Assembly: GCA_031835245.2 (NCBI GenBank)
Contig: JAVKOQ020000017.1
Location: 310,001 to 363,048 of the forward strand
DNA from: Balamuthia mandrillaris
Taxonomy: Eukaryota
Length of the DNA stretch: 53,048 nucleotides
Direction of reading: 5' to 3'
The position numbers and the translations under genes are program-made. Below are positions 23,565-27,549 of the stretch, piece by piece. Within the stretch, counting starts at the first letter, position 1, and every line of letters begins with the position of its first letter. The notes below the pieces were generated by a model, which did not search any database, was not told the DNA's origin, and saw only the letters and a program-made list of their open reading frames with translations.

Positions 23565-24012
23565 TCATCTTCGCTTGGTAAGGCCAGCAGGCGAAGGCAA
23601 TCCAAACAATCGCAATCTCGAGATACCTCCACAAGGGTATATCTTAAGCAGGGCATGGGTGCAGGTCTTGTGGCGTGCCTCCTCCATCACTTCAAACACG
23701 TGCTCCTGGTGAGGATGAAGCAAAGTGGGAGGGATCAACGTGAAGTAAGACGCTTGATGAAAGTCGTCACCGTCAAGACCTTCAGGAGCGAGGCAGCCCT
23801 CCAGAGAGAAGGCCACAGGGGAGTTGTTCTTGAAGTGGAGGGTGTCAATGCCAACCGTCACGATGTGCCCGGAGCGATGCAGCCTGACCACCGTCCAGTT
23901 CCAGACGGAGGAGAGGGGTCCTTTCATTGTGAAGATTTCATTTGGTTGGGCTGGTCGAAGTCTTGCTGTCTCCCATCCATCCCCTGTTTGTTTTTGTTAA
24001 CGAATTCGTTTG

Positions 24013-24049
<37 letters not shown>

Positions 24050-24716
24050 CGGTGAGCAGACAAACCCATGTTTATGCCCCGTCCTGGTTTGAGCATATTA
24101 CCAGGCAAGCTATAATGAGCGCTGCTGCTGGCCACCACTTGAGCATCAGAGCCACAAGCCAATTCCGTCAACTCTGGAAAGTTAAAGGATGACGGTAGTA
24201 CTTCCGTCAGTGTTGTGGATGTTTCACTCGCCTTCTTCTTCTTTGTTTTGCTCAGCTCTATTTTGGGATTCTTTGGAGGGACAAAGTCAGCGGGAAAACC
24301 GTTGTTGAAGTTGAGGGTTTGCAGCCATGCTTGCTTCAGTTGAAGGTCGATTCTAGCATCATCAGAGTCGCTCCTTCTACGCGGTTGCTCCAACGAGTCT
24401 TCCAACTCTTCACCGTAGAGCTCCAACGAGCAATGCCTCCATCAGGATAGCTGCAAAGACGAATGAAGCGAGTCCAAGGACAACCCTCACTCGCACTGCT
24501 ACTCTGGTCCTCCGCAGTTATCGTTGGGAAGTAATTTCTGGAGTTCGGTTTGAGGACGGAGCAAGGCACAGCGGTCACCCACTCAGCAATCTTGCGGCGG
24601 TTCACAATGTGTTCTTTGAGGCATTCAAGCCTTGCACCAGGTGCATGATTGCCATCAAAATGAGCCGTATCAACTGACGTTTGTATTGGATAGAAGGGAG
24701 GGACGAAGAGGGTGAG

Positions 24717-24750
<34 letters not shown>

Positions 24751-27549
24751 CGTACTATTTACACCATATATCTTACAATATTTTGGGAGTTCAATAACTG
24801 CAATATCAGGGGGATTCATGTTGTGTCTAGTACTCTGTTTGTGGGAATTGACAATCAGAAGAGAGCACAAAGAGAATAGAGAACGGAAAAACGCTAACCT
24901 CCCAGCCGTCATAGACTTGGCCCTGATTGCCAAAGGAATGCGGCTCAAAGCGCGGAAAGTTGTTTTTCAACAAATTGGCGGCTTCTGCGAAAGTCTCGTC
25001 AGAGACGAACAGTATTTTGGCCTCCGAAATGTCGATTTTGGGATATTCGGCCAGAAAAGAGAGATGAGATTGTGTGGATTGAAGGTACCTCTCCAACAAG
25101 GCAGGATTGTTTCGAAACGGATAGAGCAGGTACTTGCTGGTAAGAGCTGTGAAGTACTCCACAGGCTTTGGATCGGTGCAGAGAGACCGGACAATGGAGA
25201 GAGCAATGTCATATGCGTTCTTGGTCTCGGCGGTGAAAGGAATGTCGGCTGCCTCTTCTCCTTCCCCAAACTTAATTTGTTGCATGACATTGCGGAGATG
25301 GTCTTCCAACTGGGAGGCCGTCATGCGAACTTTTTGGCCCGAGCGGCTGATTATCTCTTTCTGATAGTTTACGATGCTCCATATTTCGCGTCTGGAACGT
25401 TCTAATGTTGCAGCATCTTCCATCAATCGGACTCTGCAATTTAGAGAGGATGAGGGAAGAGTCCTTTGTCTGTTGTGAAGTAGTGGGAGGGGAAACGAAA
25501 AAAAAGAAGGGCTTGTAGAATTGTACTAACCTAACTCCATCCTTAAATTTGGTGGTGAGACCAACGCATCCTTCTCCGGTGATGTAGGAGGTCAAGTATT
25601 GCAAGGCGTCGCTGAGGTTTCGCTCAAACTCTTCTTCAGTGCAGAACACTTCCTCTAAATTAGTGACCAACATTCTCTCGTGCGTTATCTTCTTGATTCC
25701 TTCCTGGAGCTTAGCTATCCTGTTTTCTCTTTCGGACTCAGACTCCGCTGTTTTGAGGTAAGAGGAGTTAACAAGAAAGATGTTGTTGGGTGGAAGTGAA
25801 GAAGAACAAGCGAAAGGCTCTACCTTTTCGTTCGAGTTCCATTTCAGTGATGAGTTCCTGGATAACTGGGACTAACTGTGGGTGAGCCAACCAACAGCCC
25901 TCTAAACCTCTCCCAACTTGCACTCGGAAATCTTGGGAGAACGCCTCCACAATCCTTTCCATGCTGTTCTCACTTCCGATTGTTGGTGGAACCATCGCGT
26001 TCATCCCACCAATAGGAATGGCTCCTCTTCTCTTACAAACGTCAACGATTCCCATTTGATATGCTTCCAAGTGCTCCACCACAATTCTAACAGCGAGGAG
26101 AGAGGGAGAGAGAGAGAGAGAGAGAGAGAGGGGAGGGGGAGAGAGAGGGAGAGATTAACATGGTAATTAACAAATGATAAGAAGGAGAAACAATACCTTA
26201 GGTTAGACTTGGGAGGCATAGAAAAGCGAGGTAAATTTTGATGAGCAGCTCCAATGCTGGCCATGTAGTCATGCCAGCCGCAATTAAGGCCAATAATATA
26301 GTTTCTTAAAGCGTAGAGTATCTCTTCCTTTTGATAGGCAGCGCCCACATTCTCGATGATGGCCAAACATTGAATCGTTCCAACTTTAATGTCTTGGTCG
26401 CTGGTATGCTCTCTCAATAGCTTTTCGCTGGTCTCGAAGAGTTTCGCCAGATAGAGGGCTTCTTCGAAGGTTTCAAGCTTTGGGATGTAAAAGGCCGGTG
26501 CTCGGTTCTCGTTCTTCAACGTAGACCAGTTGTGGAAGAGGTAAAGAGCAATGGTCATGAGGTGAGCTGGCATCGGATGACCATCCACCAAGAAATGGCC
26601 TTATAGCGGAACAAACAAATCTAGTGATAAGGAATAACAGGGAGATAAGAGGAGAGTATAGGAGAGAGGACGTACCATTTGGAAGGTGGAGGCCTTCGAA
26701 TCGAAGAATCATTTCAGCCATTTGCACGTCTTCCTCGGGCAACACCGTGTAACGCTTTCCCTTGGCGCTTCGGTAGTCCAACTGCCGACGGTTGGCCAAC
26801 GTGACGGCCGTTAGGCCTTCCAACAAGCTCTCTCTTGCCACGGTGGAGGAGTCCTCAAAGTCTACCATGAAGAAATGAACTCCGGACTTGAGGGCGTTGG
26901 CGATGATATTGGCTTTGGGAGGTCCCGTGATGGTGTCATGAAACCTGGCGAAGCGGGGCGGAATGTCGGCCACCTTCCAGGAGGGGTCTTCGCGGATGCC
27001 TCTGGTGTCCTCTCGGTAGCCCAACGCCACCGTGCCGTCCTTTAAGGGAACGTCCCTCAGCTGTTCTCCAGTGCGGGAGGCATCCTTGGCAGCCTCCGCC
27101 AGGCATTCCCTCTTCATTTTCCGGTGCTCCAAAAGGGAGGCCAGATTCGGGGAAAACTCCAGCGAAGCCCGGTAGAGCTCCACCGCATAGCGCAGAGCTT
27201 CGGGGCAGAGCAAGTCCAGGGAGGCGCCACCGTACCTCTGGGCGAAGGCGGCGTCCTCCTGGAGTGGGCCAACCACGCGAAGGCCCTCCACGCCAGGCAC
27301 GGGTTGGCTGTAGCGCTCCACCAGGGCGTCCACCACGGGGGCAGGCAGGTAGTCGTAGAACGCAGGGATAGGGCAGTTGCTCGCATCCCGCTGCGCCCGC
27401 TTGGTTTTTTGAGGTTGTTGTTTTACAGGGGATGAGGGGCCTGCTTTGCGTGATGGGTTGAGATCCCCCTCGCACATGGCGCTACGTGAAGGCCCTTGGG
27501 GCTGAACATTTTTCATTTCCTCCAGGCTGGGGTGTTGCAAAAGTTCCAT
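23565..27549 (-). CDS. Malate synthase A - allantoicase fusion protein (multi-exon)
   Basis: Malate synthase motifs: ITGPP, NALKSG..FMVDFEDS, LRFEGLHL, ALYLFHN, FYIPKLE, IIEN, GLNCGWHDY, CKRRGAIPIGGMNA, GCWLAHP, LMEDAATLERSR. These are followed in the same exon by allantoicase repeat 1 (ILFVSDETFAEAANLL...YDGWE/STRHN, TAHFDGNHAP, YPDGGIARLELYG). Repeat 2 follows (SSAHYSLPGNMLKPGRGINMG/DGWETAR, IDTLHFKNNSP, IYPCGGISRLRLFG). Confidence 0.92.

What the first reader, a model, noticed from the sequence alone, without database searches (positions are those of the whole stretch)
23565..27549. Malate synthase-allantoicase fusion enzyme
Seen in sequence: the exon read by ORF 24827-25426 runs without a stop or intron from the malate synthase C-terminus (LMEDAATLERSR...PVEYFTALTSKYL) into allantoicase repeat 1 (AKILFVSDETFAEAANLL...YDGWE). 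The fusion is therefore not a splicing artefact. The malate synthase catalytic/Mg residues (R in LRFEG, E in IEN, D in GWHDY, D in MEDAAT) and both allantoicase repeats look intact. Established knowledge: allantoicase converts allantoate to ureidoglycolate plus urea, ureidoglycolate yields glyoxylate, and malate synthase condenses glyoxylate with acetyl-CoA. Inference: one polypeptide couples purine-ring nitrogen release to capture of reactive glyoxylate as malate. It may bypass a separate ureidoglycolate lyase, since none is present in the window and some bacterial allantoicases also cleave ureidoglycolate. I do not know of a characterised eukaryotic protein with this architecture.
Basis: partly seen in the sequence, partly recalled or inferred. 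Interest (0 to 1): 0.92.

Follow-up and report, generated by a model that had tools for sequence, protein, structure and literature searches.

The report
Allantoicase fused to likely ureidoglycolate lyase
A spliced, expressed eukaryotic gene, also present in Acanthamoeba, joins allantoicase to a malate-synthase-shaped domain that likely does the next step of purine breakdown (splitting ureidoglycolate into glyoxylate and urea) rather than making malate, which would make it an undescribed family of that enzyme.

Summary
The fusion is real. One exon carries both domains, all seven introns are seen in RNA, and spliced contigs bridge the domains. Acanthamoeba castellanii (55% identical) and several unnamed sequences share the architecture.

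"Malate synthase" is doubtful. The domain belongs to a divergent "GWHD" clade that scores far below the malate synthase A cut-off. Bacterial members lie in or near urate-breakdown genes and track the absence of the classical ureidoglycolate lyase (AllA). None of 33 genomes with the four-domain form has AllA. Among 24 allantoicase-positive control genomes, GWHD occurs in 0 of 8 with AllA and 11 of 16 without. A zebrafish malate-synthase-like protein is a proven lyase.

Best reading: allantoicase plus ureidoglycolate lyase in one chain (60%); lyase plus malate synthase 20%. No activity was tested. The scan found the bacterial four-domain relative before on other DNA, not this eukaryotic form. 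Ten literature searches found no description.

The parts
26676..27549 (-). Exon 1 of the fusion gene: ~55-aa N-terminal extension (no PTS2-like motif) plus the start of the malate-synthase-fold domain, including the Arg equivalent to E. coli R166 (model R283)
   Evidence: RNA contig X12 record 2 starts at 27549
26197..26599 (-). Exon 2: TIM barrel with E250 and D278 equivalents (E374, D402) and the clade signature GWHD in place of GRWD
   Evidence: Pfam MS_TIM-barrel E 7e-22
25824..26086 (-). Exon 3: TIM barrel end (M330, W365, H368, P369 equivalents kept; A331N, E356Q)
   Evidence: Pfam E 4e-12
25531..25747 (-). Exon 4: connector and start of the MS C-terminal domain, with the clade-specific hairpin insertion (about 9 residues)
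24899..25433 (-). Exon 5: junction exon with the catalytic-Asp helix (D447 equivalent, D592), MS C-terminal bundle, ~40-aa linker and start of allantoicase repeat 1
   Evidence: Pfam MS_C and Allantoicase in one frame; 39-45% identical over its whole length to P0001 and P0002
24756..24834 (-). Exon 6: allantoicase repeat 1
   Evidence: bridged in X5 record 19
24066..24673 (-). Exon 7: rest of repeat 1, inter-repeat linker and start of repeat 2
   Evidence: Pfam E 2e-11
24424..24425 (-). 1-nt deletion (frameshift) in the window's copy; likely a heterozygous null allele of one strain, or a sequencing error; early stop at ~24336
23565..23983 (-). Exon 8: allantoicase repeat 2 and stop; C-terminus has no PTS1
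   Evidence: Pfam E 4e-28
27550..27977 (.). 428-bp spacer between the two start codons; inferred shared bidirectional promoter
   Evidence: RNA depth falls to about 0.1-0.2 per mate direction in 27566-27802
27978..30226 (+). Allantoinase (AllB/DAL1-type amidohydrolase), 10 exons, 475 aa, no internal stop, head-to-head with the fusion gene
   Evidence: model; nine RNA joints (eight GT..AG, one unresolved); TIGR03178 is the best family for 4 of 4 exons scanned

Best explanation
The gene encodes one 1132-aa protein (intact allele) whose C-terminal two repeats are predicted to act as allantoicase and whose N-terminal malate-synthase-fold domain likely acts as a ureidoglycolate lyase rather than a malate synthase. 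The adjacent allantoinase would make allantoate, and allantoicase would cut it to (S)-ureidoglycolate plus urea. The N-terminal domain would bind ureidoglycolate where malate synthase binds glyoxylate (conserved Arg, Glu, Asp, Asp) and eliminate the second urea, leaving glyoxylate. The clade-specific polar substitutions around that pocket (T251N, R276W, W277H, A331N, E356Q, I453R) would fit the ureido group. Shown: one transcript, both folds, conservation, clade membership, genomic distribution. Inferred: every catalytic step, any channelling, co-regulation with allantoinase, and peroxisomal location of relatives.
For: (1) Divergence from MS: four homologues score 203-268 bits against TIGR01344, cut-off 594.5. 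GWHD is in 9 of 9 eukaryotic and 21 of 21 bacterial-type rows; R276/W277 are in 55 of 57 canonical rows. The two GWHD groups form one side of the tree, SH-aLRT 100, quick method. (2) Context: the closest relatives are MS-like + OHCU decarboxylase + beta-lactamase-like + allantoicase polyproteins. HIUase lies beside them in 57 of 80 loci and a PuuD-type urate oxidase in 56 of 80. A standalone GWHD gene sits in a cluster with allantoinase, allantoicase, OHCU decarboxylase and uricase (L124). (3) Pathway hole: AllA is found in 0 of 33 genomes with the polyprotein. In 24 allantoicase-positive control genomes, GWHD is in 0 of 8 with AllA and 11 of 16 without (Fisher p 0.002, not corrected for kinship). 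(4) A separate MS is often present: 10 of those 11 genomes, 14 of 30 polyprotein genomes, and Acanthamoeba's mitochondrial MS-ICL fusion (PMC13632651). (5) CoA-pocket positions vary among eukaryotic fusions (K101 in 0 of 9; M102, N105, H368 and C438 variable) while the catalytic positions are invariant. (6) Precedent: DrMSL, which also lost R276.
Against: No activity was measured. The window's own protein keeps most CoA-pocket residues named in PMC3112382 (I94, T95, G96, M330, P369, C438; M102 to I). Bacterial GWHD proteins keep K101, M102, N105, H368, P369 and C438, so MS activity is not excluded. W365 is kept, unlike in DrMSL. 16 of 30 polyprotein genomes have no other MS. Yeast keeps a true MS (DAL7) inside its allantoin cluster. 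Ureidoglycolate also decays spontaneously (PMC3793230). 5 of 16 control genomes without AllA have no GWHD gene. The exclusion test is bacterial, uses mostly draft genomes, and ignores relatedness. No genome of this organism was held, so another UGL there is untested. One relative, P0195 (40% identical over the C-terminal 579 columns), has lost the catalytic residues of this domain.
Confidence: 0.6

Rival explanations
1. The N-terminal domain is bifunctional: it cleaves ureidoglycolate and condenses the bound glyoxylate with acetyl-CoA, so one polypeptide turns allantoate plus acetyl-CoA into malate plus two urea.
For: It fills the UGL hole while keeping all MS catalytic residues and, in the window and bacterial forms, most CoA-pocket residues. 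16 of 30 polyprotein genomes have no other MS. A bifunctional UGL/MS ancestor was proposed in PMC10120013.
Against: The CoA pocket is relaxed in the Acanthamoeba protein and other orthologues (G96A, M102P, H368M, C438Y in P0004). The two tested family members are each monofunctional.
Confidence: 0.2
2. One reading: a true but divergent malate synthase captures glyoxylate; ureidoglycolate is split spontaneously or by an unlinked lyase.
For: R166, E250, D278, D447, W365 and M330 are invariant. The best fold match is E. coli MSA, E 2e-29. Yeast DAL7 is a precedent. Spontaneous decay occurs.
Against: It does not explain why the clade is missing from all 8 AllA-positive control genomes and sits beside a canonical MS in 10 of 11, nor the fixed changes at 20 canonical-conserved columns.
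Confidence: 0.12
3. The N-terminal domain is a vestigial or structural appendage, or has another ureide-related activity; only allantoicase matters. In this strain one allele is a null.
For: P0195 has a degenerate MS-like domain with an intact allantoicase. A frameshift allele exists here.
Against: Active-site residues are invariant in 8-9 other eukaryotic rows at 48% mean identity. The intact allele dominates the RNA of run X18.
Confidence: 0.08

Closest known systems
Eukaryotic malate-synthase-like ureidoglycolate lyase (zebrafish DrMSL/UGL; PMC10120013)
   Same: MS fold, glyoxylate site largely kept, R276 replaced, tied to allantoicase, PTS1-type ends in several members
   Different: DrMSL is standalone, has R276I and W365M, has lost the CoA site, and belongs to a eukaryote-only group. 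Here R276W and W277H, W365 kept, CoA site partly kept, bacterial members exist, and the domain is fused to allantoicase.
Malate synthase A (E. coli AceB, PDB 3CUZ/3CV2; yeast DAL7 in the DAL cluster)
   Same: Fold (Foldseek E 2e-29), catalytic Arg/Asp and Mg ligands; DAL7 is linked to allantoin genes
   Different: About 28% identity to canonical MS, less than half the TIGR01344 cut-off score, GWHD instead of GRWD, hairpin insertion, and distribution complementary to AllA
Allantoicase (yeast DAL2, PDB 1SG3/1O59; TIGR02961)
   Same: Two repeats with the WE-x-x-R, DT-x-H and P-x-GG motifs
   Different: C-terminal half of a fusion, long inter-repeat linker, PCGG instead of PDGG in repeat 2
Bacterial MS-like/OHCU decarboxylase/beta-lactamase-like/allantoicase polyprotein
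   Same: Same GWHD clade at the N-terminus and allantoicase at the C-terminus
   Different: Two extra domains in between. Those genomes lack AllB over cut-off and PuuE (0 of 30 each), whereas the window's shorter fusion has a classical allantoinase next door.
Bacterial/fungal ureidoglycolate lyase AllA/DAL3 (PF04115)
   Same: Same predicted reaction; also found fused to allantoicase (P0073)
   Different: Unrelated family; no PF04115 match in this protein

Membership tests
Malate synthase A | TIM barrel plus C-terminal plug fold | tested here: met
   Pfam; AlphaFold model of orthologue P0004, mean pLDDT 68.5, matches 3cuz at E 2e-29
Malate synthase A | Catalytic R166/D447 and Mg ligands E250/D278 | tested here: met
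Malate synthase A | TIGR01344 score above the 594.5 cut-off | tested here: not met
   203-268 bits for 4 of 4 full-length homologues; the window protein could be scanned only exon by exon
Malate synthase A | E93, R168, R276, W277, E356 as in canonical rows | tested here: not met
   T, E, W, H, Q in 9 of 9 eukaryotic rows; canonical residues in 55-57 of 57 rows
Malate synthase A | Acetyl-CoA pocket (I94, T95, G96, M102, M330, P369, C438 per PMC3112382) | tested here: inconclusive
   Mostly kept in the window protein, variable across orthologues; by alignment only
Malate synthase A | Malate formation from glyoxylate and acetyl-CoA | not testable with these tools
   needs an assay
DrMSL-type UGL group | R276 to Ile | tested here: inconclusive
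   Arg is lost, but replaced by Trp
DrMSL-type UGL group | W365 to Met | tested here: not met
   Trp in 8 of 8 eukaryotic rows that cover the site
DrMSL-type UGL group | Acetyl-CoA site not conserved | tested here: inconclusive
   Relaxed across eukaryotic fusions, largely kept in the window and bacterial forms
DrMSL-type UGL group | Group contains only eukaryotes | tested here: not met
   413 matching stretches in bacterial genomes; sister relation
DrMSL-type UGL group | 2-aa insertion and tree position with DrMSL | not testable with these tools
   No DrMSL-type sequence was returned by any search; the paper's supplement was unreadable
DrMSL-type UGL group | PTS1 | tested here: inconclusive
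   The window protein ends KRR. Of 7 full-length homologue clusters, 2 end AKL/AKM, 3 end SAL/ASL and 2 end otherwise (PTS1 consensus recalled)
AllA/DAL3 UGL (PF04115) | PF04115 match | tested here: not met
   No hit in the 8 fusion-gene stretches scanned (exon 6 not among them) or in P0001/P0002
Allantoicase | Two PF03561 repeats | tested here: met
   repeat 1 is frameshifted in the window's allele only
Allantoicase | Conserved Glu/Arg/His of the putative active site | tested here: met
   Motifs kept against yeast 1SG3; their role is recalled, the paper was not held
Allantoicase | TIGR02961 cut-off 277.9 | tested here: inconclusive
   215-274 bits in 4 homologues

The most novel reading that the evidence does not exclude
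The GWHD clade is a living version of the hypothesised bifunctional UGL/MS ancestor. Fused to allantoicase, it lets one polypeptide convert allantoate plus acetyl-CoA into malate plus two urea, so bacteria-eating protists and predatory bacteria feed prey purine carbon straight into the TCA cycle without releasing glyoxylate. The protist gene is the streamlined two-module relative of the bacterial four-module polyprotein, with a classical allantoinase next door replacing the beta-lactamase-like module.
Probability: 0.2. Interest if true: 0.85.

Novelty: new variant of a known kind. Interest (0 to 1): 0.66.

Why it matters
It would supply the missing last enzyme of purine breakdown for Acanthamoeba-like protists and for hundreds of bacterial genomes. 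It would be a second lineage in which the malate-synthase fold does the ureidoglycolate lyase reaction, distinct from the zebrafish type in sequence features. Many proteins auto-named 'malate synthase' would need renaming. It also makes an open question directly testable: whether one active site can do both the lyase and the synthase reaction, as proposed for the ancestor in PMC10120013. The complementarity with the bacterial polyprotein (classical allantoinase present where the beta-lactamase-like domain is absent) is one further hint about that domain's role.

Tried and rejected
Splicing or assembly artefact at the domain junction: rejected. An intron that removes the 24424 frameshift: none fits, and reads show a 1-base difference instead. 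Read-through or fused transcript with allantoinase: rejected, because splice sites have opposite orientation and depth dips between the genes (the library is unstranded). Membership of the DrMSL group: W365 is kept and bacterial members exist, but no tree with DrMSL could be built. Origin of the eukaryotic fusion by internal deletion of the bacterial polyprotein: unresolved. In the allantoicase tree the eukaryotic domains are neighbours of the polyprotein domains only across an unstarred branch (89), and one standalone sequence lies between them. The careful (bootstrap) tree did not finish, so only quick trees are reported. The tree rows were a hand-picked subset: 56, then 35, of 111 MS domains. 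No whole genome of the window's organism was held, so a genome-wide check for UGL, MS, uricase or urease was impossible. The scan's notes for this genome were empty. The ESM Atlas gave only sub-0.9 leads to bacterial 'putative malate synthase' clusters; a second query got no answer. No complex prediction was run, since no binding is claimed. Literature searches found no paper on this fusion; two were for background. The species was not determined.
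Full report
OBSERVATION. The region is a minus-strand eukaryotic gene with eight exons (27549-26676, 26599-26197, 26086-25824, 25747-25531, 25433-24899, 24834-24756, 24673-24066, 23983-23565) and seven GT..AG introns. 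Pfam finds the malate synthase (MS) TIM barrel in exons 2-3, MS_C in exons 4-5 and allantoicase repeats in exons 5, 7 and 8. Exon 5 alone carries MS_C (E 1.3e-5) and the start of allantoicase (E 1.4e-7) in one frame. RNA reads of runs X17-X19 and spliced contigs of X12 and X5 support all seven introns. They cover the junction without a dip or a pile of molecule ends, and single spliced contigs bridge the two domains. The fusion is real and transcribed.

(a) The window has a 1-nt deletion at ~24424 in the last motif of repeat 1, which gives 902 aa instead of 1132. The extra base is present in 34 of 37 reads of X18, 0 of 3 of X17 (X19 has no coverage there), and in contigs of X12, X2, X3 and X5; the X1 contig agrees with the window. 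X1 and X2 are one sample and show two alleles elsewhere in the gene, so a heterozygous null allele is my preferred inference; an error is not excluded. (b) A complete 475-aa allantoinase gene starts 428 bp away on the opposite strand. RNA depth is near zero between the two starts, which suggests a shared promoter (inference).

CONSERVATION. Seven 90%-identity clusters with the same architecture were found (P0001-P0007), 45-55% identical to the window model, plus P0195 and exon-sized fragments. The only named member is Acanthamoeba castellanii Neff (ELR19769.1/L8H2M4, auto-named 'allantoicase repeat domain containing protein' and 'malate synthase'). Its 20-residue insertion falls where the window has intron 2, and P0001 breaks off where the window has intron 7, consistent with shared introns. 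The window's organism is therefore likely an amoebozoan; the species was not determined. An AlphaFold model of P0004 (pLDDT 68.5, 8 sequences) matches E. coli MSA (E 2e-29) and yeast allantoicase (E 8e-15).

THE N-TERMINAL DOMAIN IS NOT ORDINARY MS. It keeps R166, E250, D278, M330, W365 and D447 (E. coli numbering), but four homologues score only 203-268 bits against TIGR01344 (cut-off 594.5). It has fixed changes E93T, R168E, T251N, R276W, W277H, E356Q, I453R and a hairpin insertion. A profile search of 1.84 billion representatives showed that the next-closest proteins are 1300-1800-aa polyproteins: MS-like, OHCU decarboxylase (in most), beta-lactamase-like, allantoicase. There are also ~680-780-aa standalone forms. 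All share these changes (with R168P in place of E), and both groups lie on one side of the MS tree with SH-aLRT 100 in two quick trees. Long branches are a caveat; the shared motifs argue for descent.

GENOMIC TEST. The polyprotein matched 413 stretches in GTDB genomes; the best 80 are mostly Bdellovibrionota and Oligoflexales. HIUase neighbours it in 57 of 80 loci and a PuuD-type urate oxidase in 56 of 80. I searched 33 of the 80 genomes for AllA-type ureidoglycolate lyase (UGL): 0 of 33. In 30 of them PuuE was absent, AllB was never over the cut-off (28 had sub-cut-off amidohydrolases), and 14 had a separate canonical MS beside isocitrate lyase. As a control, 121 genomes of the phylum of G031 gave 24 allantoicase-positive genomes besides G031. 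AllA was in 8 of them. A GWHD gene, checked by motif in all 11 cases, was in 0 of those 8 and in 11 of the 16 without AllA (Fisher p 0.002, uncorrected for kinship). Ten of the 11 also have a GRWD-type MS. Three further AllA-less genomes have DUF6986 beside allantoicase, and two have neither. Most are draft genomes, and completeness was not shown.

MECHANISM. PMC10120013 (main-text parts 3-5 of 7 read; supplement unreadable) shows that a zebrafish MS-like protein with a nearly intact glyoxylate site is an (S)-ureidoglycolate lyase without MS activity, and proposes a bifunctional ancestor. The step between allantoicase and any MS is exactly UGL, and the GWHD clade is distributed as its substitute. 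Acanthamoeba runs its glyoxylate cycle with a separate mitochondrial MS-ICL fusion (PMC13632651, passages). I therefore infer allantoate -> (S)-ureidoglycolate + urea (C-terminal half) -> glyoxylate + urea (N-terminal half), at 60%. Against this: the window protein keeps most CoA-pocket residues listed in PMC3112382 (passages), as do the bacterial forms. 16 of 30 polyprotein genomes lack another MS. Yeast DAL7 is a true MS in an allantoin cluster (PMC13751858, passages). Ureidoglycolate decays spontaneously (PMC3793230, passages). P0195 shows the domain can lose its catalytic residues. Bifunctional UGL+MS gets 20%, MS only 12%, vestigial or other 8%. Several relatives end in PTS1-like tripeptides, but the window protein does not and has no PTS2-like motif, so its location is open. 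Peroxisomes in these amoebae are covered in PMC7549135 (passages).

COMPARISON AND NOVELTY. It likely works like DrMSL but fails that group's W365M and eukaryote-only features. It is not filed under MSA or AllA either. Full-text searches (open-access library only) found no description of this fusion or clade. PMC8919083 (passages) only guessed an MS role for zebrafish Mlsl. The unread supplement of PMC10120013 may include the Acanthamoeba sequence. The scan had noted the bacterial polyprotein five times and a flagellate version once, seen after my own; a look-up by sequence found nothing for the two-module form. These notes are not independent support.

VERDICT. A real, expressed, conserved fusion with an adjacent allantoinase. 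The function of its N-terminal half is probably misread as malate synthase. New variant of a known kind; interest 0.66.

Noticed in passing
window 32174-34222 (-) and 35288-36055 (+): An EF-hand protein that looks like MICU (label is my reading; Pfam shows only EF hands) lies head-to-head with a mitochondrial calcium uniporter gene (PF04678, E 4e-42). From recall, MICU1 and MCU are also neighbours in vertebrates; one paper search found nothing.
   Followed up: partly
L111, L112, L125, L126 (G120, G145, G136, G127): DUF6986 (PF22484), which weakly matches the MS barrel, lies beside allantoicase in four genomes lacking AllA; a further candidate ureidoglycolate lyase.
   Followed up: partly
P0195 (Logan, 955 aa): A member of the fusion family whose MS-fold domain has lost the catalytic Arg, the GWHD motif and the catalytic Asp while allantoicase is intact.
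   Followed up: partly
P0019-P0037; L002-L081: The beta-lactamase-like domain of the four-module polyprotein matches an SxxK pattern in 14 of 17 rows and is a candidate allantoinase. P0019, P0027 and P0034 end in ARL, SKL and SKM, so they may be eukaryotic and peroxisomal.
   Followed up: partly
window 21670-23425 (+): Acyl-CoA thioesterase-like gene (PF03061) converging on the 3' end of the fusion gene.
   Followed up: no
window ~4035-21360 (-): Very large multi-exon gene ending in a HECT domain, probably a giant E3 ubiquitin ligase; contains a long CT-type repeat at 16640-17030.
   Followed up: no
window 48642-50152 (+): Two overlapping frames (308 and 281 aa; AAA_22 hit in the first) that look like one intron-poor ATPase gene with a frameshift.
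   Followed up: no
window 30727-31701 (-), 39434-40994 (+), 50339-51204 (-): Fatty-acid elongase (also apparently frameshifted or spliced near 31140), class IV aminotransferase, and a Skp1-like gene (by eye; no Pfam hit for the stretch scanned) beside a long four-base repeat.
   Followed up: no
window 25152: 4 of 29 reads of X17 (2 start places) lack one base near the MS-allantoicase linker; not seen in X18 (0 of 41), X19 (0 of 3) or X12; probably error.
   Followed up: no
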